From Eremomyces bilateralis CBS 781.70 (lineage: Eukaryota), in the NCBI GenBank assembly GCA_010015585.1, contig ML975160.1: DNA of 64,000 nucleotides; one strand, written 5' to 3'. The notes beneath the pieces were generated by a model that did no database searches, was not told the DNA's origin, and was given only the letters and a program-made list of their open reading frames with translations. The first letter of the stretch is position 1. Every line of letters begins with the position of its first letter. The translations under genes were made by a program, and so were the position numbers. This document shows, one piece after another, positions 13,860-57,200 of the stretch.

Positions 13860-13923
13860 TGAGAGAGTGACGAGAGAGGAGAGGATCGGGGAGAGCGAAA
13901 GAGAGAGAGACACTGAGAGAGAG
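13860..13923. repeat. GA-rich low-complexity tract upstream of the KH gene
   Basis: gagagagtgacgagagaggagagg..gagagagagacactgagagagag. Confidence 0.6.
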
Positions 13924-21497: not shown

Positions 21498-21533
21498 GGC
21501 GGGTAGGAATGGAGGCGAGGGTGTGCAGACGCT

Positions 21534-23297: not shown

Positions 23298-23798
23298 CCT
23301 TTTAGGCTTTCCCGCCTCGGGTTTGATTATCCATCTCAACTTCCGTCTCCCGCCCACAACTACCGGTATTACTTCAATTCCTACTCCGTACTTACGATGG
23401 AATCACTTGGGCATACCATATGGAGATATCTCTCGACTATGTCGTAGCACCCTCTACCATGGTCAAACTCTATCGGTCATAAGCACCAATGAATGGGGCA
23501 TGTCGTGAAGTCGGCCAAGGCAACTAGTCTACAGTAGCTCCATGCTACATCTCCGCACACTTTCAGGCCCTCGGATACAACTATAGCTCTCGGCCTTGAT
23601 GGGACCTGATAGATATGGCCCCCCATCAGATGGAGTCTTATTGTTACTCGTAATTCTAAACTTGATCTTGCTTAAGAAGGTCTCTTCTCGCAAGTTTCGT
23701 CAGTTCTCTAATTCAGTCCAGTCTGCTTCCTTCTAACTATTCAGCATCATTCTTTATATATACCTTAAGTCATTATCTAGTTGAGTCAATCGATCACC

Positions 23799-33297: not shown

Positions 33298-33629
33298 GTT
33301 TGGTGAGAAATCGGTCTAGGGAGAGATATTAGGGGACAAGCATGAAGCGAAAGACTTTCAGAGTGCAAAACTTGTTTTCAATTGACAGTATCGAGAGTAT
33401 TATTGCGACATCAGTCCAAGAACATGACAGAATGAATGAAGGCTACAGAATTAGGATTGATAATCAAGATAGGTCTTCCAAATTGCCCAATGGTGGTGAT
33501 GATGTTTGGGATGATATGGAAGGGATCGTGACGTCAATTTAGGGTCGTATGGATACCACAAACCTCACGTTCTTCATCAGACACCAACTGTCCCATTTCA
33601 ACGATCAACATTCAAGATAATTCTATCAA

Positions 33630-34004
33630 ATGGAGAATTTCGGAGCAGATATTTGTGCCAATCGACAGCCAAACGGACACTTATCCCGTACTGCAAGAGC
33701 TACGATATTGGAGGCCGCGGGAAATGGGAAATCGAACTCGGATATTGCGAAAGAATTCCAGATCGGTCGAAGCACTGTGGTTGCAACGGTTCAACGATGG
33801 AATCGGAAGCGCACACTCGATGATTTGCCTGGGCGGGGCCGCGACCATAAAATATCACCTGCCGACGAACGCTACATTGTGAAAACTCTACGGAAATCCC
33901 CGAATATGGAGTTCTCCAAGCTTCTCGACGGTATTCCCGACTCCCGTGTTTCTAAGAGGACTTTAAACCGAGTTATGAAGAGACACAATATTAAGAGAGT
34001 ATAG
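33630..34004 (+). mobile_element. Tc1/mariner transposase N-terminal (double HTH) fragment, no DDE domain
   Basis: LSRTARATI..GKSNSDIAKEFQIGRSTV..PGRGRDHKISPADERYIV..VSKRTLNRVM; the GRxxK linker between two HTHs is typical of Tc1-type transposases. Confidence 0.75.
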
Positions 34005-38938: not shown

Positions 38939-40345
38939 TTAGAAGGCGGCAATGGCAAAGGCAATGGCAACAACGAGGCCAACGACCAGATTGGCGGACG
39001 CGGCGCCAGTGAAGGATGGCGGAGGGGTGGCGCTGGTTGGGTTGGGTGGGCCTCCGGACAACTCAGAGATAGGGGCGCTGGTTGGGTTGGGTGGGCCTCC
39101 GGACGACTCAGAGATAGGGGCGGCGGAGCCACCTCCGCTGGAGATCTCAGCCGGAGTAGGGCTTGAGTTTTCGGGATCGGAAGAGGCCGCGGTCGGCGCT
39201 AGAAGAGAAGCGGAGGGAATGGTGCCGCCGTTGCCACTACGGTACCAGTTTTGGATCGGGTCGCCCAAGCACTCGCCCATGGTCACTGCTCGGAAACCCA
39301 GAGCCTGGATACGATCGAGCATGAAGAGGGTCAGGTCCTGGGTACTCAGCGGATGGAGGTCATGGGAGATAGAAAGGAACTTGTTAGTAGTCGGAAGGAC
39401 GACAGCGTCCGCGAAGTTGTTCTTGGCGGTCTGGATCGACTCTGGGGTAAGGTTATTATAATCGTCCGTGTCCACATCAAAATAGCTGATGTGGTAGCCA
39501 AGATCTGCCATATCCTGCATACATGAGGGCGTAATGCATCCAGAGTAAGGTGGCCGCATGTAAGTAGGGAAGTACCCAAGAATATTCTGGAGGGCGATCT
39601 CGTTATAGAGAATTTCCTGCTTACGCAGTTCATCGCTGACTTTGTCCAAGTTCTGGTGCGACCAGGTATGGGAAGCAACCTGGTGACCGTCGTTGGCCAT
39701 ACGTTGTATAACAGCGCTCCAAGCAGGGGTCGAGTCGATCATTCCCTTGCCATTATTATTACCGGAGATAAAAAACGTAGCCTTAGCGTCATATTGATTA
39801 AGGAGATCCAGCACAGCATTAGTATAGATGGATGGACCATCGTCGTAAGTCAGGGCGACGGTCCCAGGAACAGTGCAGTGGTAGATACCGGCGCCACCAT
39901 ATGGGACGCTACCAAGATGTGGGCGATCAGTATTAAAAGTATCAGGTCCTGATGGCTTCTCGTTCGTACCGCAGCCAGATCCGTACTGGTACTGACAGTT
40001 TGGTGCGCTACAGTAACTAGAATTGTTACCACACCAACTCTTTCCGAAGGTTAGTTGCTATCATAACGACGCTGAAGTTATATAATAACTCACAGTAGGT
40101 GAACAGCAGTATCCTTCCGCGCAACTTGTTCCACCAAAGTCTGAACCGCATCGTCCATCGGTTCCTCCAATTGGTTCTTGGCGCGATTCCTTCAAACCTC
40201 TGGTCTCGTAGTCGGATCCGTAGTCGATTTCGATGCCTCTCAACACCTTCAGAGGGGGAGCACCGAATAATCCTGGCCCGTGGTAGCCCTCGAGAGCTAC
40301 CGTAATGGCCGGCAAAAGGGCCAGAGACGCGGCCGCAAGACGCAT
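38939..40345 (-). CDS. Secreted, probably GPI-anchored chitin deacetylase (CE4) with N-terminal CBM18
   Basis: Signal peptide; DGRCG..CAEGYCCSPT|SWCG (hevein-type); TYDDGP, HTWSHQNL, YMRPPY, DTDDY, SHDLH; Ser/Pro-rich stalk; hydrophobic C-terminus. Confidence 0.93.
39029..39123. repeat. Two-copy 45-bp coding tandem repeat in the deacetylase stalk
   Basis: ggcgctggttgggttgggtgggcctccggac(a/g)actcagagatagg x2, encoding APISE(S/L)SGGPPNPTS. Confidence 0.9.
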
Positions 40346-43300
40346 GATGAAATATTAAATATACCAGTGACTAAATATGGTATTGCTTGTCAACGACTTT
40401 CCAAAAAGCGAGAGTAAGAAGAAACGACAGACAGTCGACCTGACCTGGTAAGCACGGTGCTGAGGTACGAACGTACAGGTCAAATAAAAGCGAGCATGTT
40501 TTAAAGGATGGAAAGGTCAGGTAGAGTCCGATGTGAACATCGGCAAGATTTTGAGTGTTGAGCTCTTGAGGACAAGGGTGTGCCCTGACTGGCTGCTTGC
40601 ATCTGTCCGATACTCCGATTTGACCGGTCACGAAACGGGGAATCTAGGCCCGACGAATCGTTTCCTATCCACTTTTATGTGCCCTTTTAGGCATTTACAG
40701 AGGAGGACTGTCTCCCAGGCTGCTGGTAATAATCTTTTTAGGGAAAGGAAGTCCTTGCAGAGTTAGAAAGGATTGCATACACCTCATTCGCAGGCCCCTG
40801 TTTGACCAGGATGATCCCAGATAAGGTTTCCATTCTTCAGCTTGGCGCTAGCGTTGATTGGGAGAGCAAGCCACCCGCTGCGCTCCAGGCATGAACTGCT
40901 GTCACACGAAACTCGAAATAGCATGGGTTTGCCTCAAACCGGCTACGAGACAAGCTCTCTGCCATAGACGGCGATAGGTGGCATAATTGAGAGGGAAGAT
41001 TGGCTTGTTTAATATCTCTTTCTTCCAAGGAAGCGGGACGTAGTCTACGTCTTCTAAGATCGGCCGTGTGAGCAATGTGGGAACAGATCAACAGAATCTA
41101 TGTATAGATCGAACGCATCGTCCTTACTCCTTAGTGGCGAGGGAACAGACGAAACTTGTCAAGCAGGGATTAGAAACGGAAAGGAGGAATGGTAAATAAG
41201 ACCCTGTAAAACGACGGTAAGCCACGACATAGAAATGACGGGGATTGCGACGTCGACTCACAGCTCTGGTTTGTTGTTGCGCCGAGCGCTTTTCCGGTCC
41301 TTGATGATCAGAATGGTGGAGGGGTGAACGTGGCAAATTGACGTTCTTTGTCGGTCGTACGAGTCTCACACAACGGCAAGATTTACTCTGCTGCACGTTG
41401 AATTCAAATGATCTCATTTGAATTGCCTTAAATGCGACATCCTCCGGGGGAGACGAAATTGAGTTACGTTTCTTGGCATTCCCCTATGCACAGTTCCCAC
41501 GATCTTAACCAGAACGCGGCGGAGAATTCACCAAAACAGACCTCTAGTAGTTGCTTAGTTAGGAAAAGAGTAGTTATACTTTTTGGTATTATGCTGTTTT
41601 TGAGCGAATTGGGCCTGCCTGTGATGGTGGTGATGGTTGGGGGAATGCCAAGAGACGTAACTCAATTTCGTCCCCCCCGGAGGCATCTTCGATCTGCATA
41701 ATCCTTGAGCGGGGATTCTAGGTACAGTTCACTGTCCTGTATGACAAAGGTGGATGAGCTTCGTTTTCCGAAACACTGAACACAGAGTAAACTCGATATT
41801 GTATTGTGTGTAACTAAGCTACGGAATAAGGGAAAAGGAAGGGAAAGAATATACGCAAGGTAAACATAGAAGGCACTGTCTTCACTCCTGTGTATTTAAC
41901 ATACACATCACAAACAAACGTGGAATCCACTAGTCACCACCAGCCACAAGTAGTGAGTGGGCCCTGCGGGGTGAATACCTGCAACATCATATCTAGCTGT
42001 GTCACAGCAGAGGTATAAGAAAACACCCTAAGCAAAGATAACTTACTACGAGGCATGCAGCGAGTCCCCACTGACTCGAGGGCTACACGTAACTCCCGCT
42101 AAGGTAATGACGTGTACGTAGTAGTACAGAGGAACCATGGAAACCCTTCATGGAGCCCTTCTCCTCTCCTTCTCCAAGGATTAGTCTAAGTATTATGACA
42201 TAGATATCTTCCATCAATAACTAACTATTACATGCCTCAACTATTAATGTGACTATCTCACTCTACGCCCACAACCGTTTTCATGACCTTACAATACCGT
42301 ACTACGTAGTATATGAGTAGTAGTAGGAGTAAAACTTAAGCTCTCTGCTCTCTGCTCTCTGTACTCTACACTCTGCAGCACTTGGCTTCTCACGCCCGGC
42401 GGATTTCCATTATCTTTCTCCTCCCGGAAACTTAACTCGACTTGATCTCCTCCCCTGCTGCTACGTTTCCATCTAGCGGTTCGACCAAATTCAACTGTAA
42501 CAACCACAACCACAACCACAACCATTCCATAATTGCGGTACGCTATCATCACTGTTGTCGGTGCCGTTTCCTATTCCTCACTCCCCTCTAAGCTTCCAAA
42601 TCATCCTCACCCTGCTGCCTGCATCACCCATCACCCACCAAGCGTCAAGCGTCAAGCATCAAGCGTTTAACAGTCCATCCAAACCCCAAAGCTCATTCTC
42701 ACAAGTGGTGCAGCAGTGCAGCTCATGCATACAAGGATCCTGTTTCCCTCTTTTGTATTCGCTTGACTTGCCCCATCTGCCCATCCATCCATCTATCCAT
42801 CCACCACCTGCTTTCCTTCTCTGTCTCTCACACACACTTGTTGGATATCAACCATCCTCTAGAGGTTGGGAGTCAGCTGACATCCCAATACGGCTAGTAT
42901 CATGTGGGGTTACCTCCTATTCCTCCAAGGCCTCCCATACTCCTAGATAGATCAATCAATCACGTATCAATACTTCTACAACACTCTCTCTGCGTCTTCT
43001 ACCTCCCTCTCTCTCACTTCACTCAACTGCTTCACCTTAGCCTACCTATTCACATACTGCACATCCCCTATAAATCCACCTTTCCCTATCTTAATTTCAG
43101 ATCTGGTACCATCCAACCCTTCACTGGCCTACCATGTTCTACTTCAACCGCTGTCCTGTTTGGCTGCTGGAGTACGACTGACCCTGCCCGCCCACCAATC
43201 CTTCAAGCAAGGCAAGCCCCGTCATTCGCCACCAACGCCATCATACCCTCATGCCCTCAACATCTCGAATCCCCATCCCCCACCCACTTCCCCGCCGTAT

Positions 43301-43558
43301 CGTCACTTATCCGCTCTTGTGCCCCTCTCCAATGTCGGTCCGTTGCGTGTTCAACTTACCTCGACCCTCATCATTGACGATTCCATCTGGGAATTCCCTC
43401 TCGGCCATCCACAGTCGGGTCGGACAGACTTCGCGATCCTGCATCCTCGCTCCCCACCGATGCACCCACATCTCGCGAAAATCTAAGCCACCACTTAACC
43501 GTGATCGGATTCGAACGCAGACGGTTTAGAGGTCTCAACATCATTAAATCATTTCAGC

Positions 43559-45102
43559 ATGTCGCAGAGCCGGCCGTCGGCGTTCTCGACGCTTCGCATA
43601 GGAGGCAAGGTCCCTATCTGCATTTAGCTGTTGACCCAACACGTGCGACGTCGCAGGTATACTGACGATTTTTTTCCCATTACAGAAGTCATTCGAGAGA
43701 AGGTGCAGGATGGAGTAACTGGCGAAACTAGGGATCTGGCGTATACGCAGTGTAAGATCGTGGGGAAAGGATATTGTGGCGTGGTGTTTCAGACCAAGTT
43801 ATCGCCAAGTGGTGAAGATGCTGCCATCAAACGAGCACTACAAGACAAACGATTCAAGGTATACCATACTGAAATATTCGATAGTTGAAAATAGGGTTCT
43901 AATAGCCGATTTCTAGAATCGAGAGCTACAAATCATGCGTATTGTCCGTCATCCAAACATCGTCGAGTTGAAGGCCTTCTACTACAGCAATGGGGAACAG
44001 GTACGTCACTCTTCTTTCCTGCTTCGATTCAATTTGAACAATTCTGACACCAGACAGGAGAATGAAGTCTACCTGAATCTTGTCCTCAAATTTGTCCCTG
44101 AGACCGTATACCGAGCATCGCAATGGTTCAATAAGATGAAGACGGTCATGCCGATCCTCGAGGTCAAACTTTATATCTACCAGCTCTTCCGCGCTCTCGC
44201 ATACCTCCACTCCCAAGGAATCTGCCACAGGGACATCGACCCTCAAAATCTGCTTCTCGACCCGGCCACCGGCATCTTAAAACTCTGCGATTTTGGCAGC
44301 GCGAAGATCCTAGAAAATAATGAACCGCACGATTCTTACCTCCGCTTAAAGTACTGCCGAGCGCCGGAGTTGATATTTGGAGCGACCAACTACACAACCA
44401 AGATTGGTAGGTTCACGCAGTCGATCCATCCGGTCAAGCTGACATGGTCAGATGTCTGGTCCGCCGGCTGCGTCATGGCGGAATTGATTCTTGGCCATCC
44501 GCTCTTCCCATGTGATTCCTCAATCGACCAGCTCGTGGAGATGATTAAAATGCTCGGAGCGCCCACCCGGGACCAAATCCGCGCGATAAACCCCAAATAC
44601 ATAGGACACAAGTTCCCACAAACCAAACCGCATCCATTCTGCAAAGTATTCAAGCCCACATCCCGTCCTCGCCGTGCCCAATCAGGAAGACCCACCTCTG
44701 ACATCCCCCAGGTCTTCCGCGAAGCCGATGCCGACGCCATCGATCTGATCTCCAAGTTGATCGAATACACCCCCACGCAAAGATTGTTGGCTATCGACGC
44801 TATGGTGCATCCGTTCTTCGACCAGCTGCGGGATCCCAGCACCAAGCTCCCTGATTCCCGTCGCATCAACGGTGCCGCTCGGGAACTGCCCGTGCTGTTC
44901 GATTTCTCCCATCACGGTAAGTGTTCCCTCGGTCTGCGTTATTCTCCCGCTAATCATAGCAGAACTCTCCATCGCCCCTCCACTCAACCAAAAACTCGTC
45001 CCGAAGCACGTCCGCCCGACCTTGCGCGCTAAGGGCCTTGACGTCGATTCACCTTATTTCCGACCCCTCACCAAAGAGGACATGGCGGCTCAGTTGGATT
45101 AA
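43559..45102 (+). CDS. gsk3: Glycogen synthase kinase-3-like protein with atypical catalytic motifs
   Basis: [73 protein letters not shown]; six introns; ends AAQLD*. Confidence 0.92.
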
Positions 45103-46499
45103 AGACAACCTGTTGATCATTTTGGCGTGTCAATCAATCACGGAAGCCATAGGGTACCCGACATAGGGAGTGGGATGCTTATTTTGTATAAGAAGTAGGA
45201 CACATGGCAGGGCAGATATACCCGGGATTATGTAATGTACAGAATGGGATGACTAAGTAAACCGCCGATTTCCGACACAACCCCCTTCTTTCCACTTGTC
45301 CCTTCTCCTTCAGCACAAGGCCAGCCGACCTAGACCGGAACGCCTGGGCACAGTCCTCTCGCTCGCCTTGGTGGAAACAATGGGGATGGGGGAACCATGG
45401 GAACATCCCGCGATACAGGAATGGGGTGTAATGGAACGGAATGGCACTGAATGGAATTGGGACGCATTCACGAAGTTATGTTTCTAGGAAATTCACATAT
45501 GGTACACCACTACGCAAATCACATCGCACGCAGAGCGCATCTGTCATGTCACGGATGTCAGTTGGTCATTACCGCTCCCTCGCTCCCTCCCCCACTCCCT
45601 CTCTCTCTTTTTCCCCATCTTCCCCTCCCCTCTCTCTATCTCGTAGTTCACAAGAGTCTTGGCACAAGTATGAGTACGAGTACATGTTGGCAGCGAAAAT
45701 TATGGATGGGTTATTTCGATTGTTTTTTTCGTCATTCTGTTCGTTGGCGTTGGTGTGGTGTCATCGTCGTCGTCCGTGTCGTCCTTACCAGTCGTGTCCT
45801 ACTGTTGTTGATGGACCTTTCCCGTCCCCATCCAACCATTCGTTCCTCTACCAGCCAGCCAGTAGTCACCCAGCGTCTCCTGACCTCCCTCGACTACGAC
45901 CTCCCACCCAGCGTTTGACGCCGCGCTTCAACAACCACATGTCCCGATTAACCATCCCGATCGATGATCAACAGTAACGTCTCATCGCATACAACTGTGC
46001 CCTCTGTCCTCCCGACCAACCGATCACCAGCTTCCCCCATTTCTTAACAGTCCCCCCAAAAGGGGTTAGGGAGACCGATTTGGCGAGCAGCGTACCTGTT
46101 TCTCTCCCTTCCTCTCCTCCACGCCATTCCACTTCGCCTCCCGAGAAAGTGTGTGCTTTCGATTTTTGAACCATTGCTTCCACGTGTGCAGATACCTTGC
46201 GACTCGTCTATTTTGTCCCTTTCGTTTAATCCGGGGAGCAGATGGGCCTATATTCTGTGGTGTCCTTCTGGTTAATCCGTCGGGCGCCTTCGAATTGCGG
46301 TACGATTACCTGGACGTCGAGCTAGCGTGCGTCAGCTACCGCACTCGCCCGTTGTGAGAGCATCTGGTGGAGGTCTTCCGTGCCTGCCGCCGTGATCAGG
46401 TTCGGTCGTGAGTCGCTGTGGGCTAAACAGTGGAGGAGGACGTGCCGGACTGTTGGTGCTTGTTAGCCGCATGCGCAGCCTACGAAAACTATCTCCATC

Positions 46500-47340
46500 T
46501 CAACAAGAACCTGCCGTCGCTCGTTAAGTGCAGCTTTTGGTGTCCAAGAAAGGTTACTTGAATCGCGAATCATCTACTTTCACGAACAAGAGGTGGCTTT
46601 TGAATGTTTTGTGGGAATGGACTGCAAATGTAATAGGATCCATGAAGGCCAACACGCGAAGCACGTCAAAGCCCGATTTTCCCAAGCGCTTGCAAGTGAA
46701 AGGGGCAAAAATCACACTTTAGAGACGGCCCTGGATCCATATTCCTATTTATGCGAAGATTGCATTGGGAAAAGACTCACTATCCCACGAAACACCTTTC
46801 CAGCCCTGTCGAGTTTGGCCAGCAGGTTGAGTGGTGGACTTACTAAATTTTACGCTAAGGTCTAGGAGGATAATCTCATATATAGGCTCCTCTGGGAGAG
46901 AAGAGACCCAAAAAGGCCACATTGCCACAAGAGCTATGCCCACCTAGCTGGCCATGGCCGTCGAGGACTGGTGCACTGAATTGAAACCATCAGGCAAGCC
47001 ACCTATCTGGTGTGAGTGTAGAGATCATCGACGTACAATATAGCGCTGCGACCCCCGACTCTTTTAGTCTCCCTTCTGACGGAACTCCGGTATTGGGTGA
47101 GAATGTCATTACAACAAAGCTTTGGACAGCTGGAGGACGCTAAGTTGGACCAGACATGGTTCCATGATCACGACTTGAGCTAGATGACCAAGTCCTGGCG
47201 GAAACAACAAGGGAGAAGAAAGTCGAATGCCTTGGGATGCCGAAAGTCAATTACGGTAAGATACTCGCGCTGGTACTGATCAAGAAGCAGGTTCAGGGCG
47301 AGGAGTTCTACTATTGAGTTGGCATAGATGACCTAAATGA
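46500..47340 (+). pseudogene. HET (heterokaryon incompatibility)-domain gene remnant, C-terminal part
   Basis: W-C/QERLLESRIIYFHEQEVAFEC..CKC, KRLTIPRNTFPALSSLA, V*EDNLIYRLLW, PPSWPWPS, LVLI..FYY*VGI, broken by frameshifts and stops. Confidence 0.7.
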
Positions 47341-47927
47341 GGAGGTGATCGAGGATACAGCTTTGATGGAGATCAAGGTTGAATGATCGACTACTTGCTC
47401 TAAATGAAAACCAAAAAAGGGTGGGGTAAAAAAGAGAAAAATGTAAGTCCTGTGGGATTCAATCTTGCACCTTTCCACGCCGCAACCCCTGGGTCAGATT
47501 GGAGAACTACTCATTGACTCCCCCTTACCCAGGGTTTTGTAGGATTGGTACTGGGTGTCAATTGCACCACACATGACTTATTGATTATAAATCTACAATC
47601 AGTAATTATATACCACCATGCTGCATTCCCACATCACCTTCACCTACCGATATTGACGTTCCCGTGCTAGCTGCGAATAACACATTGGTTTTCGGACACA
47701 CTCAAACTTTGTTGTATATATGATGGAGGGTTCTACATCTACGTTTTCTAAGGCAGATGCCTTTCTGTTATTTTCCGATCTGTCCAATGCTCCCCTTTCC
47801 CTATCCAGTGCTTTCTTTCAACTCATACATCACCACTGTAACCCCCTTTCTTGGGCGTCTTCAGGGAAACCGGCAGTGTTAGGCGCCACGGTAGGAGGTT
47901 TCCTCTACCCGGACGCTACTTAGACTA

Positions 47928-48338
47928 ACGTAATCCACAAGTGAGTTAGCCATACAAGCGAGTTAGCCAGGCCAAATCTCACCAGAATCGGGATATTTCA
48001 TTGCCCTCTATCTCAATAACAACATTATAATAAAGACTAAAAGTTGGTAGATAGACTTTACTAGTCATTTTAAGTCTTTTCTTAAATTTATAGAGCTTAG
48101 TTATGGTAGTGGTAGATATATCTAGGTCCTAGGTGTTAAAAGGTGCTAGAATCTACTCTGACCTAGGTATATCCACAACTACAATGGCTAGAGCTCTATA
48201 AATTTAAGCAAAGGCTTAAAATGACTAACTAGTAAAGTCTATCTACCAACTTTTAGACTTTATTATAATGCTATTGTTGAGATACAGTATCCTGATTTTG
48301 GTGAGATTTGGCCTGGCTAACTCACTTGTGGATTACGT
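47928..48338. mobile_element. Fold-back MITE with Fot1/pogo-type ends, 411 bp
   Basis: TA|ACGTAATCCACAAGTGAGTTAGCCA ... TGGCTAACTCACTTGTGGATTACGT|TA; inverted homology continues inward to a loop of about 30 nt; AT- and TpA-rich. Confidence 0.92.
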
Positions 48339-51300
48339 TAGAGATTCATAGCCTCCAAAGTCATATCCAAAGCTGAGGAGATCAATTGGTCTCTACTGGA
48401 GCTATCCTCGGGCGGTTCAGGGGCAAGTCAGGCGTTGAGAACCCATTCAGTGCATCTAGTCACCTCCGATCACGAACATACCGCAAAGACATTCCGATAT
48501 TCTCGATTCCATAAGATCCAAAATGATGAATAAAGAGCGCGGCGACTGAAATACTTGGTTCAAAATTGCAAAGTTTAGGGTTGAGGCGGTCCCTCTGGTT
48601 CTAAGCCATGCGGTGGGTTAACCTTCACCATCAGGATCGGAATACTGGAGACGACATGTGAAGATAGGGGTCTTCGCCGCAACGCTGCATCCAAACTTTC
48701 CTATACTAAACCGGAATCTCTGCTAACGCCTTTTCTTTATATTAACTATCTGCCGAACCTTGATCTTCCTACCCTAGGTCCTCGCCGCTCTATGACAACA
48801 GTGTCCTGGCAACCCGTGCCTCGAGCCCCCTGTCCTCTGAACCGGTTACGTGAGCTAGGATGAAGCGGCTCTACCGTGACTATGCACTAATCCGACGTGG
48901 CATTGGAGAGCGTCGGGTTTGCGATTGGTCCTGCTTTTCGAAGGACCTTAAATGCGGAAGGGGGAGCAGTGACGGAGTCTTTGTGAGAGATCCATCGTAG
49001 GATGCCACTGAATCCCTGATGGAATTTCCTGCTGTGACAAGTCCAGCGATAAGCATCGCAACACAGGAGGATTGCGGCCTTTTATTCATCGGTTTATGCC
49101 AGCCGTGATAGTCATTCGGGGTCATCCGAAGGCGGAGCCGTTTGGAGCGTCCTAGGCGCTCCATTCCATTTAGTATGCATTGTTGTGGAGACAAACATCA
49201 ATCAGACAACAGAAGAGTCACGAACCATTGGAATTACTGCATTCGATACTCAACAACCGGACCCAAGAGGAGCCAAAGGGTAGTAATCGAATCCACATCG
49301 TGGAGTTACCTACCAAGTAAGTCCATAGCCACGAGGCTAAACGAATAGCGCATCTACCCACAATCAAGTGACCTCCATCCACCAACCTAACGCACCGGTC
49401 GATCAAGCACGCCTCAAACAATGCCCGGCCATCATCCCCGCTGTCCCACCACGCCAGAAAACAATGCCCGTCCCAGAACACCGACCTCCTCCCACCGCCG
49501 CGTCCCACCTTCCGCTGCGACTTCCTGCGCGCGGGTTCCACCGCATGCGATATCCCCGCATGCGGCGCCAATCGTCGGGGTGGGTGATGATGTAGAGGGC
49601 GGATACGGCAGGATCGGCGGGCCGTTGGGAATCGGGCTGGATGGAAGGGGTGGAGATGGGGTTTGGGTCGGGAGGACCGGTTGGTTGGGGAGGTGTGTGA
49701 TGGGTTGGGAGGTTGGAGGTGGAGGTTACACGGGGGATATAGGCTTTTTGAGCGGATCATGCGATATCCTTGCGCATCACTGTAGTGTCTACACTTGGCG
49801 AGTGGGACGTCGACTGTTCGTTGACCTGATGGAGGTCGAGCAGACGGTACGCCGTTTCTTAGTTTTTTAATGTAGTAGGTCGGCACTATATGGAATTCAA
49901 GCCCATCCCGGCGGCGATCACCCATTCCCTTCCGTCTAGCTGCTCCCTTGCCGCTGCGGCAACCAGGTAATCGGTCTACGTCGGGAGGCATATGATAGAT
50001 TACCTAGCACTTAACATCCATCAGATGCGGTACCGTGATATACCGGATCAGTTGTGGTGCCTTAATCTGGGGAGATTGAAGCGGACGGGGGGTGATGAGC
50101 TGAAGGCATGTCGGTTGGGGAGGAGAGATAGACGAGAGGTAATATACTAGGGTTCGCGAAAGGACCTACAGTACTCCGTACTATGCTCGGGATGATGCGA
50201 TTTACGAGGAAGTGAACGGCGTTAATATGGCTTGGATCTTTGCACTGTCTTGGTCTCGGTCTCTGGATTCTTAGTATCCATGCAATGGATATTGCGGGAG
50301 CAATCGGATAGACTCCTTTAGATGCGATGCGAGGTTTGGGGAAGTTTGCTGGCTAGGAAATTATGCAGCCATCTGTACTCAACCTTGCATCATCAGCAGG
50401 ATAGAGATGCAAGTTGAAGGGGAAGCTCCACCTCCTTATCTGCCTCTGCTTGGAATTCAGGAGGCTCGTTCTGTCACAGTCGCACGACAGGCTCCATCAT
50501 CGTCTCTGCATCATCGAAACGTGCAATTTCGAGCCCATGATTGCGAGAATGTCGCGAATCCGATGGAACGTCCGATTGACCACGAAACAAACTCGTCCGA
50601 TCAGCACGTGATCCCCGCAACCGAACCAAGCTGACCTGCGTATAGATTCATTTGGCTTACCGCTGCTGCATCCTCGTCGTTGCACAGGAAGGACGTGCCA
50701 TTCGTAGGATTCATTTATCCCCCGTTGATCTCCCGACCCCGACATTCCCCAGATTTTTATTAGTTGCGCATGTTAGACGTTAGCCTATATCCATACATGC
50801 CATTTACCCAGGATTCGGCTGCGCAAATTATAAATATGCCCATCAAATGTGATTCAGGCACGGTGCTCTGGAAGCCCCGCACCGACTCCCCTGTGCACCC
50901 TGCGTTCCTCGCCCCAACGTGCACGGAAACATCAAACATCGAAGCGGCTGAAACACTGTGGTAAATTTGGGGCGCGCACACCCGTCCACTGTGGGATGTT
51001 TCAGATTCGTGGAATCCTGGAGCCGGAGAGGTGGTCGGCTTGGTTCCGCTAGTGATTCAGAGGGGCAGCGAACGGACGCGTCTGTCTCAGACATAGTTTA
51101 GGGCCTGTGTGCTAGACACAAAGGGACTATTTATTGTTGTGGCGGTTCTAGGGTCGTGGAGGTTCGGGTACCTGCTTGGTAGGCTGTTGGTGACATCGGG
51201 ACGGGTAGAAGTGATGGTATCTAATCTTAGAGTCGTGGGGAGAGGTGGAGGTACCGTATGAACGTGTGTCAATTGTTGAATCTGGACTATTGGAAGACGT

Positions 51301-54230
51301 GTCCATGAGTTGAGCCGTTTCAGCATTCAAGCCCATCTGAATCCGATGTGATTTGGAGCAGGGCAATCCCTGGCGAAACCGGTAACAGCGAACATCAAAC
51401 GCTCGACCCTTTGCACTATTTTGCAATTTGCATAGTAGCTCCGGGATGCGATGAGGGGATTGATCGCTTTTCGGGTAGGTTAGTATTTAGTACGGAATAG
51501 GATTAGAGGATCATTTCCACCACATCTTTATGTTCAGGACTTCAGGTATGGATACACGCGGTACGGAAGTATCCGAGGTATCCTGAACGGTCGAAAGCGA
51601 CATGACCTTCCCGAAATGTCTCCTTGTCCACCACTCAGAAATCGATCCAGCTCATATCACATCGAGGGATTTTGCGCAAACCTGCAGTGCCGTAGACACG
51701 GCATACGACCACGCAATGGACATCCAGCGACAGGTCAAGCGTGCGGACCAGGCGTTTCAAGTTTGCCTGACCAGCCTCATGATCTCCATTCTTCACCGTT
51801 GCGCAAGGGAATATCCTGGCGTTGCCGAGTTGCGATAGTCTGGTTAATTTCACCTGATAATACGGACTACGGAGTTCTTATTAAAGGCATGGATATATGT
51901 ACTTGGTACTTCTTGTCATTGTGTAGTATGGTACACCAGTGCTCGCGGGCCCTCTTCATGAGACGGCTTGCGATTCACGACCTAACTGTCGGGATGGCAA
52001 CGCGGGTAGCGGCAGTAGCGAACGTGGAAAGCAGCACAGTTCGATCGATCGAACTTCCGTAACGAACACAATCCGCTCTGCGATTGATGAGAATGGCAAA
52101 TGGGTAACGAGTGGCAATCGATCAGGTATGACTTCTGATATGTAGTTGGATGAAGGAATTGACCCCGCTGCACGCCGCCCGATCAGCACCATCGCTAAGA
52201 ATAAATCGTTGAGCTCGAGCTGGTGGTGGCATTGTCCCCACGATTGGGCGGGATGTCGCGATACCCCTGGTCAGGCACCCCTCCTGATCCCTTTCGCCTC
52301 ACTGATGAGCCACAAGTTGGCACTGATGATTGATGATGTCGAAATGCCAATCAGACTCGGTTCTGGTGTCTGCAAGGCTGAGAGCGCAAGGCACGAACCA
52401 GGACGGCATCGGACCATCAACAAGAAGCAGAGATGCTGTGAACGCGTGTTGTATTTCCAACCAGGCGGGGGGATATTTGGTGTCAATCGTGTTGGAAGAT
52501 GGTTTGAGATACAGACTTCAGGATTCGATGACGACTTCTCCTTTTTATGTAAATCGATCTAACTTGACTCTTCTCTACAAAGACGGGGTTCCGTATCTCT
52601 TATTATAACATAGCAAACAGATTTGTTTATTGATCGGTGTTGATATTGTTCGCCCAGCTGCTGTTAATCTCCAAATCTTCTTGGTGGCCCCTGCCGCTAA
52701 TCCTATTTGGGCATCGTATGAAGCCACAATAACTCAATAATAAGGCACATGAACCTCCACGCTGACGGCCACATATTTCAAGTTTTCAAGCTGAAAATCT
52801 CCAGTCGATAATCAATCAATAGTAGTAATTAGTCTCCTACGGAGTAGATTTCATGCAATCCATGGGGATTATGAAATCTTCACGCGCTGCAGTGCGACCA
52901 TCCAGTAGAACCTTTGATACGCGCATGTCCAGCAGAAAATCAAGCTAACCTTCCCATGCTCTCGACCTAACAGCCATTACGTGTTCTGTATCTGTATTCT
53001 ACACATTATAGCTTCTCAGGAGACCATTACAGTTCAGACAGCTATGAATCCCGCTCTCCGAGATTAGGTATACATATCATACCGTCCCTAACTATATCAT
53101 GTGCAGAATAGAAATATTCTCAGCTCTGCGAAAACAATAACTATTAAGGCGATGATAAGGCCTGTTAATAGGAGCAACAACCTGGAAGATTAGAAGGAAG
53201 GAACCCCCCGGTCGACCTTCCCACTTAGCACCAAGGCCGCGACCCTCCCGGCCCACTGAGCTGACCCACCACACCCCATCAATTCACCAATCAGCCATCC
53301 CTGCGGGTTCAGTGGAGGAAAGAGCGGAAACTGAGAGAGGGAAAGCGCCGAGCAGCGAGCGACCATCGCAGATCGATTGGATTCAACGTGAACCGCCGCC
53401 ATGATTCTTCACTTTGCAGTATTGGACTCTTAGTGTTCTCACTTCTCGAGTTACGACGACAAGACTTCTTCCCCCCCAGTCCATCCAACTCTCTCTCTAT
53501 CCACTTCCACCTCTCCTATTCCCATTTCATCCCTCATCCTGATGATCAGGGAGTTTGGTTAATGTCTTCGGTTCCACACGATTTCTCCATCCGATCTCAT
53601 CACTTTCGTCCATCGAGGACACCTGGAACGTCCCTGAATCGACCCGTATTCAGCTTCCCGACGTCGCGGATCACCCTTCTCACTCGCTGACGATTCACCT
53701 TCGAATATTTCCTTCTCCTTCACGATTTCACGACCTTATATACGTATTCCCGGATCTGGATCCATTGCTCTGCCTTCGTTTAGCTTTCACGACCCTGTTC
53801 CGAGTTCTGCACTTCGTTTTCTCGCCCGACTGCGTCTCCTGAAATCTTACCCCAGCGTTTCAGGTTCCTGGATATTCTACCCAGCCCAATACCGTCGACA
53901 ACATCAACGAAACGCTTCGGACGGGTTCGATGCATGCCATACGATCGAGACCGATTCACCATTCCCTTTGATGCACGACATCTGACGTTCGTTCTCGGAG
54001 GATTTCCTCAGGGTCGTCTTGGGGTCGAGCATAGTTATTTCCGATCCCCACACCTACTTGCACGATTCAGGGCACGCAATCCAAATCGCTCGGCGACGAT
54101 CTTTGCGATCAGAGCACACAAATTCAACATCGGCCATTGACACGGTGGAATAACATCGTGGGAGGCCAGCACAGATCACAACTCGTTATTTGAGTATCTT
54201 TATCGGGTGGAAACGCAAATCGTAGCCACG

Positions 54231-57200
54231 ATGGATGTCGCGACGATGGATTCTTCCACAGAATACCCCGACATGGAGTCCCCTATGGATCAGGATGATG
54301 TGATATACCCGTGCAAAGGGTGCGGAGAGGTGAGTTACAAATGAATGGAGTGTCCTGAACGAGGTTCTGACCGCGCCCCCCTTTAATAGGTTCTTGAAGA
54401 GGGCAAAGCATTTGAGTTAGCGGGAAACCGCTGGCATATTGACTGCTTCCGCTGCCATACATGCGGTCTTCTCCTCGATAGCGACGCGAACCTGCTGCTC
54501 CTCGGCGACGGCTCGCTCATCTGCAACAACTGCACCTACTCCTGCAGCGCATGTGGGGACAAGATCGAAGATCTCGCGATCCTCACCGGCGAACAAGCCT
54601 TCTGCGCGTCATGTTTCTGCTGCCGTAACTGCAAACGCAAGATCGAGAACCTACGATATGCGCGAACCAGCCAGGGCATCTTTTGCATGAGTTGTCATGA
54701 GAGCTTGATGGCGCGGCGGCGGAAGAAAAGCAGGCAGAAAAGCGAACGGGCGGCAGCGGAGAGGAACGCTCACATTAGTAAGGAAAAGAGTCTGCCGGCG
54801 CTACCGCAGAGCGCGGTGCCACCGAACGAATTCAGTCGCTCGACTCTGGGTGCGCCGGAGCCATATAACAACGATGTGTCGCCGAGACCGGGGAGTAATA
54901 AGTCTCGACAGGATCTCTCTGCTGGCGAAAGAGGGAGAGATGCGTCGCCGGGCTCATTCGAATCGAGTCGTAAAGGTATGGACGCACTTCATCGTATGAC
55001 CTATTTCGAGCTGACTCTTGCAGAAACCCTACCCGCCAGCACCTATAAGGACGAATCTCGAAATTTGTCGATGGATGGGAGTGTGAATGGCATCAATAGT
55101 GATGATGGCGTATTCGTCCCATTAGCTTTCGATCCAAATCCCGCCCCGGATCCATCTCCCATGGCCAAATCACAACCCTTTAGCGACGGATCAGCCTCGC
55201 TCAATGAGAACTCCGACCTGTCTGAGTCCACTTCATCTGTACGCGCCGCTAATACCCGCGACTACTTCAGTCGAACGAACGCCCCTCCTTCAGCAAACCA
55301 CCGCGAGATGCTTAAAGAAACGCTTGGTCATAAAGCCAACTCGTCCCGGTCCTCCTCGGCGGACCGTGGAAAGGAGGGTCCTGGCACTCCCCATATCATG
55401 TTTCAAGAAAAAGGGCGAGTGCCATCGGATCAGGTACGGTCACGGAAACAACCAAGTGGTCCGCCATCGCCAGCACCACCGGCGGACAAACAATTTGGGA
55501 ACACGACTCAATCAGTTGCATCCCCAAGTTCCGGAGCGCCGGGAGAGTTCAAACTTCAGGATGCACCGAAATCAAGAAAAGCCTCGTCGCGTCGAAGTAC
55601 CGGAAATCACAAACAGGAGGGTCATCTACACACCCATTCACAGTCCGGCAGATCTCCGGGAACTTCATCGGTCTCTTCACCCAACTCGGATTTGATAGCT
55701 CGGACCCTTTCTCCACCTCTGGAACACTCCATCACCAACACGTCACACACGTCGGATCCTTCCGAAGGCTCCTACTCTTCATATGGCGATTCGCCAAACC
55801 TCACACAAGGTTCCCCTCCTATGGCATCACACCGTGCAGAACTACCCCAACGAGGCGACTCTCTCGCCGCATCATCGCTGAAACAGACGATCCCCAGGAA
55901 AGAAATCGGCGCTCCTAGATCCGATCCTACCACGCCAACCGGGCCGACCGGTCCAACCCGATTTGCCCATGACCGAGCGGCGCCTCCCGCGTCGTCGTTG
56001 CGGACACAAGAGTCACAAGTGAATGGAACGCAAGCAGGCGGAAAGTATGCCTTGGACATACCGCACCCGCCTCAGCGCTCCGCCAGTCGGCCCAATGCCA
56101 GCCCTCAGCAAGGCATGGAGGCATCGGATGATGGCGAAGGTGGCTCGTTCACTTCACCTCGACCACCACCCGCGCCACCAACCGAGAATAGACACAAGCC
56201 GGGCGAATCGATCAGCTCTGTTCATAGCGAATCCGCATCGCCATCCTTCCTTCGGTATAGCGGCGGAGGGGAATTCAGCTTGGACGAGGACATGGCACGC
56301 ATTATCCGCGGGGAAGATATGCTCCCCGCCGAGAAAGACTCGTCGCTTGCGCGCCGCATATCCAACGCGGTTAGCAAGCACTCGCGTAGTTTTAGTGACC
56401 GTGGATCCCGCTCATCAGCATCGCAGAAATGGCCCCGAACCACCCCCATCAACGGCACGTTTGACATCAGCAACCCAACGTCACCCGACGCGACCCGGGA
56501 TGATCCATCCGTGCTGCGGAATCAGTTGCGGCGCGCACAGCAGCGCATCGCAGAATTGGAGGCCGAGAAGGTCGGTCTTCAGGATGTGATCAACTCGTCG
56601 GCGGAGATCAAGCATGTCAACTCTGAGCTTCGCGAGAAGCGGTCCACCGTTGCTGTCCTCGACTCGCAGCGCGAGATCGTCCTCCGCGAGCTCGAAGTGA
56701 TGACCGATCAGCTCCGCAAAGCGAAGGATTCCAATTCACCAGCCACACCTTTCGACATTGCCGCGCTGAAGAGCGATGCCGTGCGCGAGCTTGCCGCCAG
56801 CCTCCGCGTTCTCGAAGACCAGCTTCGTTCGGAGATCGAAGAGCTCATGGAGAAGCGGGCCGACCTCACACAGGAGATCGCAGACCTGATCCAGATGAAA
56901 GACAAAGGCTTCCAAGAATACGAAGCGCTGTCCACACGAAACGCACAGTTAAACACGTTAAACCATCAACTCGTCCAGAGCATTCAGGAGATGTACAAAG
57001 CCGGGAAGCACCCCAACGGTTCCGCCTCCGTCGACGCCGGCCGCCCTGGCACCAACGGCCTCGGCATCTACCACCACCAAAAGGACAGGTCCGAAGCCTC
57101 CGTCGACCTGCGCACCATCATCAGCGGCCCCACCAGCACCGGCACGAGCATCAGCGGACCGAGCATCAGCGGCCCGATCCCCGCCGAGGCATCCTACGCG

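What the first reader, a model, noticed from the sequence alone, without database searches (positions are those of the whole stretch)
43559..45102. GSK-3 with intact structure but rewired catalytic and substrate-recognition motifs
Compared with the near-invariant fungal GSK-3 sequence (recalled): G-loop GNGSFG to GKGYCG; hinge LE(Y/F)VP to LKFVP; catalytic loop HRDIKPQN to HRDIDPQN (Lys to Asp); activation/P+1 loop EPNVSYICSRYYRAPE to [25 protein letters not shown] to FPCDSSIDQ. The beta-3 Lys, HRD Asp, DFG, activation Tyr and the primed-phosphate pocket (NRE Arg, HRD Arg, GSAK Lys) are kept. There are no stops or frameshifts and all six introns look spliceable. Inference: a duplicate that became a pseudokinase, a substrate trap or an altered-specificity kinase.
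Basis: partly seen in the sequence, partly recalled or inferred. Interest (0 to 1): 0.7.

Follow-up and report, generated by a model that had tools for sequence, protein, structure and literature searches.

The report
Rewired expressed duplicate of fungal GSK-3
This fungus carries, beside its normal GSK-3 kinase gene, a second transcribed and intact copy whose substrate-binding and phosphate-transfer residues have been rewritten, so it probably no longer works as an ordinary GSK-3 and may be a kinase caught turning into a non-catalytic regulator.

Summary
Window 43559-45102 (+) holds a 7-exon, 396-aa GSK-3 gene identical to an NCBI protein of Eremomyces bilateralis CBS 781.70. None occurs in the 119 nearest homologues, and none of 150 family-wide representatives has Asp at the catalytic-loop Lys.

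The same genome encodes a fully canonical GSK-3 on another contig. The two are sister genes sharing alignable introns and 5' flank, so this is a DNA-level duplicate. Of 53 amino-acid differences, 46 are derived in this copy and 3 in the canonical one.

Contigs of a run that skip the introns match this copy exactly, so it is transcribed and spliced, including a GC-AG first intron. All 12 listed indels are non-coding. Rough dN/dS on this branch is 0.4-0.7. The changes cluster (p=0.001) on the G-loop tip, catalytic-loop Lys, P+1 loop and alphaG region.

Best reading: a selectively maintained paralogue with impaired canonical, primed-substrate catalysis, a nascent pseudokinase or low-activity kinase. 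It does not meet the formal pseudokinase definition. Function is untested. The scan had not noted it before.

The parts
43253..45110 (.). Block that aligns to the canonical GSK-3 locus of the same genome (the duplicated segment, about 1.86 kb: 5' flank, whole gene with introns)
   Evidence: DNA contig X2 record 10 (16,887 nt, canonical locus) aligns only from 43253, with 98 other letters and 16 gaps over 43253-43970. Further canonical-type pieces cover 43943-44162 and 44144-44751. Loose ends sit at 45110/45111.
43290..43558 (+). 5' untranslated region (minimum extent)
   Evidence: X3 record 17 (310 nt) matches 43290-43599 with 0 other letters.
43559..43604 (+). Exon 1 (codons 1-15 plus the first base of codon 16)
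   Evidence: the model equals P0001.
43605..43685 (+). Intron 1, 81 nt, GC-AG
   Evidence: gagGCAAGG...TTACAG. X3 joint 43602->43684 skips 81, with 2 letters fitting either side, i.e. 43604/43686. Its depth of 4033.8 equals the canonical contig (2661) plus the window-type depth (1372.8).
43686..43858 (+). Exon 2. Holds G-loop GKGYCG (43763-43780) and beta-3 AIK Lys64 (43823-43831).
43859..43916 (+). Intron 2, 58 nt, GT-AG
   Evidence: X3 joint 43856->43915 (GT..AG with the cut +2).
43917..44000 (+). Exon 3 (NRE Arg75, alphaC)
44001..44057 (+). Intron 3, 57 nt, GT-AG, in frame and stop-free
44058..44406 (+). Exon 4. Holds hinge LKFVPE (44085-44102), catalytic loop HRDIDPQN (44226-44249, Asp162 codon GAC at 44238-44240), DFGSAK (44289-44306) and activation/P+1 segment [16 protein letters not shown] (44322-44369).
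   Evidence: X3 record 19 matches 44256-44405 exactly. At 44238 the window's G has depth 847.8 of 3052.3 in X3.
44407..44451 (+). Intron 4, 45 nt, GT-AG, in frame and stop-free
   Evidence: X3 record 19 skips it (joint 44405->44451).
44452..44645 (+). Exon 5. Holds FPCDSSIDQ (44505-44531), alpha[11 protein letters not shown] (44532-44561) and loop [15 protein letters not shown] (44583-44627).
   Evidence: X3 record 19 is exact over 44451-44645.
44646..44711 (+). Intron 5, 66 nt, GT-AG, in frame and stop-free
   Evidence: joint 44645->44712 GT..AG at depth 667.4, the window-type contig.
44712..44916 (+). Exon 6
44917..44962 (+). Intron 6, 46 nt, GT-AG
44963..45102 (+). Exon 7 with stop codon TAA
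45103..45500 (+). 3' untranslated region (minimum extent within the stretch laid)
   Evidence: X3 record 22 (659 nt) matches 45060-45500 with 0 other letters.
45111..45277 (.). High-copy short repeat directly behind the stop codon, at the 3' edge of the duplicated block
   Evidence: X1 summed contig depth is 8558-24253 in bins 45048-45278, against about 230-560 elsewhere. Many loose ends at 45110/45111 (before) and 45277 (behind). No second copy in the window.

Best explanation
A lineage-specific, DNA-level duplicate of the GSK-3 gene. It is still transcribed, correctly spliced and kept open by selection. Its peptide-substrate groove and second-shell catalytic residues have been rewritten, while the fold, the ATP-binding core and the three canonical catalytic residues stay intact.

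The main changes, in human GSK-3beta numbering (P0001 position +21):
- Catalytic-loop Lys183 -> Asp.
- Its P+1-loop hydrogen-bond partner Ser219 -> Leu.
- G-loop Ser66/Phe67 -> Tyr/Cys.
- Asn213/Val214 -> His/Asp at the rim of the priming-phosphate pocket.
- Ile217/Cys218/Arg220/Tyr222 -> Leu/Arg/Lys/Cys.
- A run of changes in the loop before alphaG, in alphaG, and in the 283-296 loop.

Inferred consequences. The protein folds like GSK-3 and may still bind nucleotide. It can no longer phosphorylate primed GSK-3 substrates efficiently. What selection maintains is therefore either a non-catalytic role (a nascent pseudokinase that competes with, or modulates, the canonical kinase through the conserved surfaces) or a weak activity with a different substrate preference.

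Shown: duplication, asymmetry of change, transcription and splicing, open frame, clustering, predicted fold.
Inferred: loss of canonical activity, and any non-catalytic role.
For: 1. Duplicate with a canonical partner.
- P0001 (this gene) and P0002 (all canonical motifs) both come from E. bilateralis, on contigs of 701,702 and 1,301,577 bp.
- They are sisters with support 0.998 in a FastTree of 42 of the 120 homologues. The P0002 branch is about 0. The P0001 branch is 0.163, the longest terminal branch (median 0.041).
- Canonical-type DNA contigs align through introns and 5' flank. The listed letter differences reproduce P0002's residues.

2. Asymmetry.
- There are 53 differences; one is an artefact of a retained intron in the P0002 model, leaving 52.
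- 46 are derived in P0001, 3 in P0002 and 4 are ambiguous, judged against 96 other fungal sequences. 30 of the 46 fall at columns invariant in those 96.

3. Transcribed and spliced.
- X3 records 17, 19 and 22 match the window with 0 other letters.
- Record 19 skips introns 4 and 5 at GT..AG.
- The joints over introns 1 and 2 have depths equal to the sum of canonical-type and window-type contigs.
- DNA runs X1 and X2 show no such joints.

4. Frame kept by selection.
- All 12 listed indel rows lie in the 5' flank or introns 1-3.
- The two proteins align with no gap once the retained intron is removed.
- From at least 7 separate indel events in about 500 non-coding bases, my arithmetic expects about 8 indels on this branch in 1188 coding bases if the copy were neutral. 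None is seen.
- The chance of no stop after 100 random substitutions is about 5%.

5. Constraint relaxed but not gone.
- In exons 5-7 (515 of 1188 coding bases) I count at least 27 non-synonymous and at most 21 synonymous differences, over N=388 and S=119 sites.
- The pairwise ratio is about 0.4. On this branch it is roughly 0.4-0.7, depending on how the synonymous changes are shared.

6. Not evenly spread.
- 9 changes fall in one 15-residue window (187-201), p=0.001.
- Dispersion p=0.0075, from 100,000 permutations.

7. Experimental precedent for the key sites.
- K183R or K183Q lowers GSK-3beta activity more than four-fold (PMC5860870, passages).
- F67A severely impairs activity. The Val214 amide binds the priming phosphate. 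Ile217 is the platform for P+1 to P+3 (PMC3953950, passages and section 7).
- The P+1-loop Thr/Ser hydrogen-bonds the catalytic Asp and Lys, and the pseudokinase VRK3 lost both (PMC2639636, passages).

8. Fold intact.
- AF2 with a diverse alignment gives pLDDT 93.0 and pTM 0.93. The lowest kinase-core block is residues 191-200, at 81.
- The top 50 Foldseek matches are all GSK-3, with TM (target-normalised) 0.92-0.98 and rmsd 1.1-1.7 A.
Against: - No activity, nucleotide binding or partner was tested.
- Lys64, Asp160, Asp179, Asn165 and the three G-loop glycines are all kept. An active kinase would need them; a dead one would not. Of 56 positions at least 90% conserved family-wide, 47 are unchanged.
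- The changes are not significantly enriched at conserved positions: 30 of 46 against 227 of 396 invariant columns, and 9 of 56 against 46 of 396, Fisher p=0.26. So positive selection is not shown. Relaxation confined to one face explains the data equally well.
- In codons 187-286 my rough ratio is near 1, not clearly above it.
- The dN/dS figures rest on counts per contig piece and on 43% of the CDS. 265 of the difference rows were not shown.
- The kind of run X3 is the tool's guess. That it holds RNA is my inference from the intron-skipping joints.
- A recent loss of function, say in the last fifth of the copy's history, would leave no trace yet.
Confidence: 0.6

Rival explanations
1. Still an active protein kinase with altered substrate specificity. 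In particular, a priming-independent GSK-3. The new Asp at the Val214 position would sit at the Arg96/Arg180/Lys205 pocket as a built-in phosphate mimic. New basic residues (Arg at 218, Lys at 64) would partly replace the lost catalytic-loop Lys.
For: - All three canonical catalytic residues, Asn165, the G-loop glycines, the alphaC Glu and the activation-loop Tyr are kept.
- Position 214 lies at the priming-phosphate site (PMC3953950, section 7).
- The frame is under selection.
- Recalled, not seen in a call: residue 214 corresponds to the phospho-threonine of MAP kinases.
Against: - Even K183R lowers activity more than four-fold (PMC5860870, passages), and Asp reverses the charge beside the gamma-phosphate.
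- The Ser219 partner and Phe67 are lost as well.
- 0 of 150 family representatives have an acidic residue there.
- No structural evidence for compensation could be obtained, because the tools do not expose model coordinates.
Confidence: 0.2
2. A redundant copy in early decay. It is transcribed because it was duplicated with its promoter-proximal region, it is not yet hit by a stop or frameshift, and it has no function of its own.
For: - Very fast, one-sided protein change (46 against 3).
- The changes hit invariant positions about as often as variable ones.
- Synonymous changes run towards A/T-ending codons: 21 of 30 polarised changes are GC->AT.
- Known from a single genome only (1 member sequence, 1 contig).
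- It sits in a stretch of about 14 kb without any Pfam domain.
Against: - No coding indel against at least 12 listed non-coding indel rows.
- No stop, which has about a 5% chance after 100 random substitutions.
- Significant clustering of the changes, with long untouched stretches: one change in residues 47-100, two in 124-186, none in 202-221.
- Rough dN/dS is below 1.
- All checked introns are spliced.
Confidence: 0.15
3. A target-duplicate 'self-resistance' gene that protects the fungus from a GSK-3 inhibitor, either its own or a competitor's.
For: The theme therefore recurs in this genome. That is a lead only.
Against: - No polyketide synthase, NRPS, terpene cyclase or other core biosynthetic domain appears among the 60 ORFs of at least 120 aa that I picked from the 118 listed in the window, nor among 37 smaller ORFs around the gene.
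- A resistant target must stay active, which the Lys183 and Ser219 changes argue against.
- The ATP-site lining is essentially unchanged, so ATP-competitive inhibitors would not be evaded.
Confidence: 0.03
4. An artefact: assembly error, a RIP-scrambled repeat, or a mis-predicted gene model.
For: None found. The GC donor of intron 1 could have suggested a wrong model.
Against: - Exact contigs appear in two DNA runs and in a run from another sample and study.
- The model equals an independent database protein.
- The GC-AG intron is skipped in contigs.
- Transitions to transversions are 141:68 over 209 places (X1).
- Only 4 of 30 polarised changes are of the CpA->TpA / TpG->TpA type.
Confidence: 0.02

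Closest known systems
Canonical fungal GSK-3. Examples: the same fungus's own P0002; An-Gsk3 AN6508 of Aspergillus nidulans (PMC3591445); Ustilago maydis GSK3, PDB 4e7w.
   Same: - 86.9% identical to P0002 (344 of 396).
- Same exon-intron layout with alignable introns.
- Same predicted fold.
- Same catalytic triad, priming-pocket basic residues and activation-loop Tyr.
   Different: - Asp for the catalytic-loop Lys.
- Remodelled G-loop tip, P+1 loop, pre-alphaG loop, alphaG and following loop.
- 46 derived changes, 30 of them at positions invariant in 96 other fungi.
VRK3, a vertebrate pseudokinase derived from active VRK kinases (PMC2639636, passages seen)
   Same: - The kinase fold is kept.
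- Both the catalytic-loop Lys and the P+1-loop Thr/Ser that hydrogen-bonds it are lost.
- It arose by duplication of an active kinase.
   Different: - VRK3 has also lost the DFG Asp, often the catalytic Asp, and ATP binding.
- It is old and conserved across vertebrates.
- The present gene keeps all three canonical residues and is known from one genome.
Bub1/BubR1-type duplicates, in which one paralogue repeatedly loses kinase function (as described in PMC3591445, passages seen)
   Same: A kinase duplicates and catalytic features in one copy then degrade, while the copy is retained.
   Different: A different family. Those cases have demonstrated non-catalytic roles; here no role is demonstrated.
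ROR1/ROR2: kinases with intact VAIK, HRD and DFG that are nevertheless catalytically dead (PMC13519141, passages seen)
   Same: They show that keeping the three defining residues does not guarantee activity.
   Different: The mechanism there is occlusion of the ATP site by a hinge aromatic. Here the ATP site looks intact, and the changes lie on the phosphotransfer and substrate side.
The four GSK-3 paralogues of Saccharomyces cerevisiae: Rim11, Mck1, Mrk1, Ygk3 (recalled, not checked in a call)
   Same: A precedent for multiple GSK-3 genes in a fungus.
   Different: As far as I recall those keep the catalytic-loop Lys and the P+1 motif and are active kinases. Filamentous ascomycetes usually have one GSK-3; A. 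nidulans and N. crassa list one each in PMC3591445.

Membership tests
GSK-3 family (CMGC/GSK protein kinases) | Closest sequence relatives are GSK-3, and it branches inside the family | tested here: met
   - every named protein among the best 120 hits is a GSK-3-type kinase.
- best PDB hits are GSK-3, at 1.5e-152 to 4e7w.
- sister of the canonical copy, support 0.998.
GSK-3 family (CMGC/GSK protein kinases) | GSK-3 fold | tested here: met
   - pLDDT 93.0, pTM 0.93.
- the top 50 Foldseek matches are all GSK-3, with target TM 0.92-0.98.
- The model leans on an alignment of GSK-3 relatives, so this is a weak test.
GSK-3 family (CMGC/GSK protein kinases) | Catalytic loop HRDxKxxN with Lys | tested here: not met
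   HRDIDPQN at 44226-44249. 119 of 119 near homologues and 146 of 150 family representatives have Lys. None has Asp.
GSK-3 family (CMGC/GSK protein kinases) | Activation/P+1 segment (S/A)YICSR(Y/F)YRAPE | tested here: not met
   It reads [12 protein letters not shown]. 119 of 119 near homologues have the canonical string. 125 of 150 representatives contain YICSR.
GSK-3 family (CMGC/GSK protein kinases) | Priming-phosphate pocket (Arg96, Arg180, Lys205 in human numbering) | tested here: inconclusive
   The three basic residues are present (Arg75, Arg159, Lys184). The neighbouring Val214 is Asp193, though, and 0 of 74 diverse relatives have Asp there. The effect on phosphate binding cannot be tested here.
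GSK-3 family (CMGC/GSK protein kinases) | Phosphorylates primed Ser/Thr substrates | not testable with these tools
   Needs an enzyme assay.
Pseudokinase (formal sequence definition) | Lacks at least one of VAIK Lys, HRD Asp, DFG Asp (PMC13519141, passages) | tested here: not met
   Lys64, Asp160 and Asp179 are all present.
Pseudokinase (functional sense) | No phosphotransfer activity | not testable with these tools
   Only inferred, from Lys183Asp, Ser219Leu and Phe67Cys together with published mutants (PMC5860870, PMC3953950).
Unprocessed pseudogene | Stops or frameshifts; not transcribed or not spliced; neutral and evenly spread change | tested here: not met
   - No stop or coding indel.
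- Exact spliced contigs.
- Clustering p=0.001.
- Rough dN/dS on this branch is 0.4-0.7, from partial data.
Self-resistance copy of a drug target in a biosynthetic gene cluster | Lies beside core biosynthetic genes | tested here: not met
   there are no such domains in the 97 ORFs scanned across the window and around the gene.
RIP-mutated repeat | Changes almost all C->T / G->A in CpA/TpG context | tested here: not met
   - 141 transitions and 68 transversions over 209 places.
- 4 of 30 polarised changes are of RIP type.

The most novel reading that the evidence does not exclude
This is a pseudokinase caught at birth, and the first one derived from GSK-3. A duplicate of a hyper-conserved, pleiotropic kinase has been kept by selection after dismantling the second shell of catalysis (the catalytic-loop Lys, its P+1 Ser partner, the G-loop Phe). 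An Asp now sits at the priming-phosphate pocket. The classical Lys/Asp/Asp triad has not yet been touched. The protein now acts non-catalytically on GSK-3 signalling, for example by competing for partners that bind the unchanged N-lobe, alphaC and C-terminal surfaces.

If true, the usual three-residue definition would miss the earliest stage of pseudokinase evolution.
Probability: 0.35. Interest if true: 0.65.

Novelty: new variant of a known kind. Interest (0 to 1): 0.5.

Why it matters
GSK-3 is among the most conserved eukaryotic kinases. Here 227 of 396 columns are invariant across 96 fungi, and the canonical copy did not change measurably after the duplication.

A sister copy in the same genome has taken 46 substitutions, concentrated on the catalytic and substrate face, while staying open, transcribed and spliced. 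It is a natural mutagenesis experiment:
- It separates what GSK-3 needs for folding (kept) from what it needs for primed-substrate catalysis (given up).
- If the protein proves to be functional, it would be an early-stage pseudokinase that current sequence rules do not recognise.

Practically, the public name 'glycogen synthase kinase-like protein-3 beta' should not be read as evidence of a second active GSK-3 in this fungus.

Tried and rejected
- Whole genome. None is held for this window. The canonical copy's DNA could therefore not be fetched, and a full codon-model test was impossible. I used counts per contig piece and the 40 of 305 difference rows that one search printed.
- Run search. 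No RNA holder is listed on record, and X3's kind is the tool's guess.
- Paralogue-type joints over introns 3 and 6. They are not among the rows shown (170 pieces not shown), so I make no claim about them.
- Depths. Window-type contigs are 299.5-1372.8 and canonical-type 1805-2661 in X3. They are not used to rank expression.
- X4, another organism. One contig was laid. It carries the canonical letter at 32 of the 40 listed places, including A at 44238. No paralogue-like contig was laid. Contigs show presence, not absence, so I make no claim that the paralogue is missing there.
- First AF2 job, with 42 close fungal sequences. It gave pLDDT 52.0. That reflects a shallow alignment, not disorder. 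The job was repeated with a diverse alignment.
- Enrichment of the changes at conserved positions. Not significant.
- RIP. Rejected.
- Biosynthetic cluster or transposase next to the gene. None within 40.1-54.3 kb. The only transposase-like ORF is at 33621-34001.
- Repeats bounding the duplicated block. Only short, low-identity chance-like matches, and no second copy of the locus or of the 3' repeat in the window.
- Earlier notes of this scan. Nothing by place or by the repeat's sequence.
- Literature. No paper on a GSK-3-derived pseudokinase, or on this gene, stood out. One search ('Eremomyces bilateralis') found 13 papers, 10 listed. One search ('GSK3', 'pseudokinase', 'paralog', 'fungi') found 487 papers with at least 3 terms, 12 listed. 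Only listings were read beyond the papers cited. Search 45, for the MAPK-phosphothreonine equivalence of Val214, gave nothing usable, so that point stays recalled.
- Binding prediction. No complex-prediction job was sent, because I do not claim a specific binding partner.
Full report
WHAT IS THERE

The stretch 43559-45102 on the + strand is a complete protein-coding gene of seven exons: 43559-43604, 43686-43858, 43917-44000, 44058-44406, 44452-44645, 44712-44916 and 44963-45102. Its 396-residue product is letter for letter the database protein P0001, named by NCBI 'glycogen synthase kinase-like protein-3 beta [Eremomyces bilateralis CBS 781.70]'.

Introns 2-6 are GT-AG. Intron 1 (43605-43685, 81 nt) has a GC donor. 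Introns 3, 4 and 5 happen to be in frame and stop-free, which is why a single 371-codon open frame runs from 43917 to 45032. Pfam finds a protein kinase domain. The best solved relatives are GSK-3 of Ustilago maydis and human GSK-3beta. That alignment gives human numbering as P0001 position + 21.

The recalled 'near-invariant' fungal sequence is borne out. Of the 120 nearest homologues, all 119 others have HRDIKPQN, EPNVSYICSRYYRAPE and FPGESGIDQ. 110 have GNGSFGVV; the 9 without it lack that region. The hinge is LEFVPET in 75, LEYVPET in 29, and gives no match in 15.

A search of 1.84 billion cluster representatives gave 150 GSK-3-family proteins down to about 40% identity. 146 have Lys in the catalytic loop, one has Arg, three show no motif and none has Asp. 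125 contain YICSR. 106 of the 110 with a recognisable G-loop have Phe at its tip.

A CANONICAL COPY EXISTS IN THE SAME GENOME

The second-best hit, P0002, is from the same strain but a different contig (1.30 Mb against 0.70 Mb) and carries every canonical motif.

- In a FastTree of 42 sequences (my choice of named, full-length proteins out of the 120) the two are sisters with support 0.998. P0002 has a branch of about zero. P0001 has the longest terminal branch in the tree, 0.163 against a median of 0.041.
- Against 96 other full-length fungal sequences (98 of 120 passed my length and end filters), 46 of the 53 differences are derived in P0001, 3 in P0002 and 4 are ambiguous. One of the 53 is an artefact of an intron retained in the P0002 model. 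After removing that insert the two proteins are both 396 long, with 52 differences that need at least 55 base changes.

IT IS A DNA-LEVEL DUPLICATE

No whole genome is held, so I laid public runs on 43200-45500 at 80% likeness.

- Two DNA runs of one sample (X1, X2) each give two sets of contigs. One set is identical to the window. The other differs by 11-15%, with small indels, and aligns through the introns and the 5' flank from 43253 onwards.
- The printed differences turn the window's codons into exactly P0002's residues, so the second set is the canonical locus.
- Alignment ends near 45110. There a short repeat of very high summed depth begins (45111-45277, depth up to 24,253 against a few hundred) with many loose ends.
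- The duplicated block is therefore about 1.86 kb: the gene, its introns and some 300 bases upstream.

TRANSCRIPTION AND SPLICING

Run X3 comes from another sample and study. The tool only guesses that it is RNA. Its contigs skip the introns at their exact borders, which the DNA runs never do, so I take them as spliced transcripts.

- Three X3 contigs match the window with no difference: 43290-43599, 44256-44405 joined to 44451-44645 and on across intron 5 (joint 44645->44712, GT..AG), and 45060-45500.
- At 44238, the first base of the Asp162 codon, the window's G is present beside the canonical A (847.8 of 3052.3).
- The joints over introns 1, 2 and 4 have depths that equal the sum of canonical-type and window-type contigs (4033.8 = 2661 + 1372.8; 3034.2 = 2366.8 + 667.4). 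Both copies therefore splice them, including the GC-AG intron.
- The depth sums are my reading of the table, not a stated result.
- I do not rank expression by depth.

SELECTION

All 12 indel rows printed lie in the 5' flank or introns 1-3 (11 more rows were not shown). The proteins align without a gap. Counting at least seven separate events in about 500 non-coding bases, a neutral copy should have collected roughly eight indels in its 1188 coding bases. It has none. A hundred random substitutions leave the frame stop-free only about 5% of the time.

For exons 5-7, where transcript contigs give total differences (25, 10 and 13; the 13 are all printed), I obtain at least 27 non-synonymous and at most 21 synonymous differences over 388 and 119 sites.

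- That is a pairwise ratio near 0.4.
- Since nearly all amino-acid changes but only part of the synonymous ones belong to this copy, the ratio on its branch is roughly 0.4-0.7.
- These are rough figures from 43% of the CDS.

The changes are not evenly spread.

- Nine fall in residues 187-201 (p=0.001).
- Dispersion over 22-residue bins has p=0.0075.
- Residues 47-100 carry one change, 124-186 two and 202-221 none.

The changes are not significantly enriched at conserved columns: 30 of 46 against 227 of 396, and 9 of 56 deeply conserved positions, Fisher p=0.26. I therefore claim relaxed constraint on one face plus retained constraint on frame and core, not proven positive selection.

The base changes are ordinary. 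There are 141 transitions to 68 transversions. 21 of 30 changes polarised with the X4 contig are GC->AT, and only 4 of 30 are of RIP type.

WHAT THE CHANGES HIT

Human numbering is used here.

- Lys183 -> Asp. K183R and K183Q each lower GSK-3beta activity more than four-fold, and the side chain lies by the nucleotide's magnesium (PMC5860870, passages).
- Ser219 -> Leu. The P+1-loop Thr/Ser of Ser/Thr kinases hydrogen-bonds the catalytic Asp and this Lys. The pseudokinase VRK3 has lost both (PMC2639636, passages).
- Ser66/Phe67 -> Tyr/Cys. Phe67 packs on the substrate's P+2 residue, and F67A is severely impaired (PMC3953950, passages, citing Ilouz 2006).
- Val214 -> Asp. Its amide binds the priming phosphate, and its side chain must rotate away from it (same paper, section 7). 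A carboxylate here should disfavour, or mimic, the phosphate.
- Ile217 -> Leu. This residue is the platform under P+1 to P+3.
- Cys218 -> Arg, Arg220 -> Lys and Tyr222 -> Cys complete the P+1 loop changes.
- Further changes line the pre-alphaG loop (Gly259Cys, Gly262Ser), alphaG (Ile269Met, Val272Met) and the following loop (Asn287Lys, Glu290Gly, Ile296Thr). I recall that in animals this is the Axin/FRAT groove; no call checked that.

Kept are Lys85, Glu97, Arg96, Arg180, Asp181, Asn186, Asp200, Lys205, Tyr216, the G-loop glycines and the ATP-site lining.

The predicted structure is confident with a diverse alignment: pLDDT 93.0, with the lowest core block at residues 191-200 (81). It superposes on GSK-3 structures at 1.1-1.7 A. 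A first attempt with a shallow alignment failed (pLDDT 52.0).

READING

The most economical account is a paralogue that selection still keeps translatable and folded, but that has been released from, or driven away from, primed-substrate catalysis.

- I put 0.6 on 'maintained, catalytically impaired for canonical substrates'.
- I put 0.2 on 'still active with new specificity'.
- I put 0.15 on 'early decay'.
- Small odds go to self-resistance and artefact.

The gene does not meet the formal pseudokinase definition, because Lys, Asp and Asp are all present (PMC13519141, passages). ROR1/ROR2 show that this does not guarantee activity.

No biosynthetic genes or transposase domains flank the gene. 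It lies in about 14 kb without any Pfam hit, between a polysaccharide deacetylase (38.9-40.1 kb) and a LIM-RhoGAP gene (54.4-58.5 kb).

NOVELTY

The gene model is public, but I found nothing in print on it or on a GSK-3-derived pseudokinase (searches; listings only). No orthologue carrying the derived residues appears among the nearest 120 of 7488 scored homologues. I rate it a new variant of a known kind, of moderate interest. Its value is as a natural dissection of GSK-3 and a possible earliest-stage pseudokinase.

Noticed in passing
window 45111-45277: A short repeat of about 170 bp directly behind the stop codon. Its summed DNA-contig depth is 8,558-24,253 against a few hundred nearby, and it has many loose ends on both sides. 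It marks the 3' edge of the duplicated block and lies inside the transcript's 3' UTR. No other copy is in the window.
   Followed up: partly
P0002 (canonical copy, other contig); corresponds to window 44646-44711: The public 417-aa model of the canonical GSK-3 retains intron 5 as 21 in-frame residues. The canonical-type transcript contig skips it (joint 44643->44710, depth 2366.8), so the 417-aa model is probably an annotation slip or a minor isoform.
   Followed up: partly
window 44722-44915 (exon 6): The two copies differ at only 10 of 194 bases here (5%), against 10-13% in exons 4, 5 and 7 and 15% or more in the flank and introns. This could be a gene-conversion tract between the paralogues, or chance.
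   Followed up: no
window 44082-44084 (codon 110): The paralogue has Val, the consensus of 96 other fungi. The canonical copy and the X4 organism's contig share Ile (A at 44082). This is either a reversion in the paralogue or a hint that the duplication is older than the split from that organism.
   Followed up: no
P0001 residues 46, 201, 238, 281: Four of the 46 derived changes create cysteines (Phe->Cys, Tyr->Cys, Gly->Cys, Ser->Cys), while Cys197 is lost. Three of the four lie on the catalytic face. A metal or redox site is conceivable but was not tested.
   Followed up: no
window 43917-45032: Introns 3, 4 and 5 (57, 45 and 66 nt) are all multiples of three and stop-free. Intron retention would therefore keep the frame, and a 371-codon ORF spans three introns.
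   Followed up: yes
window 33621-34001 (+): An ORF with HTH_23/HTH_29/HTH_32 domains, typical of the DNA-binding part of Tc1/mariner-type transposases. It lies 10 kb upstream of the gene.
   Followed up: no
window 40100-43250 and 45100-54300: About 12 kb around the gene hold no ORF with a Pfam match (37 ORFs of at least 75 aa scanned). The paralogue sits in a gene-poor stretch.
   Followed up: partly
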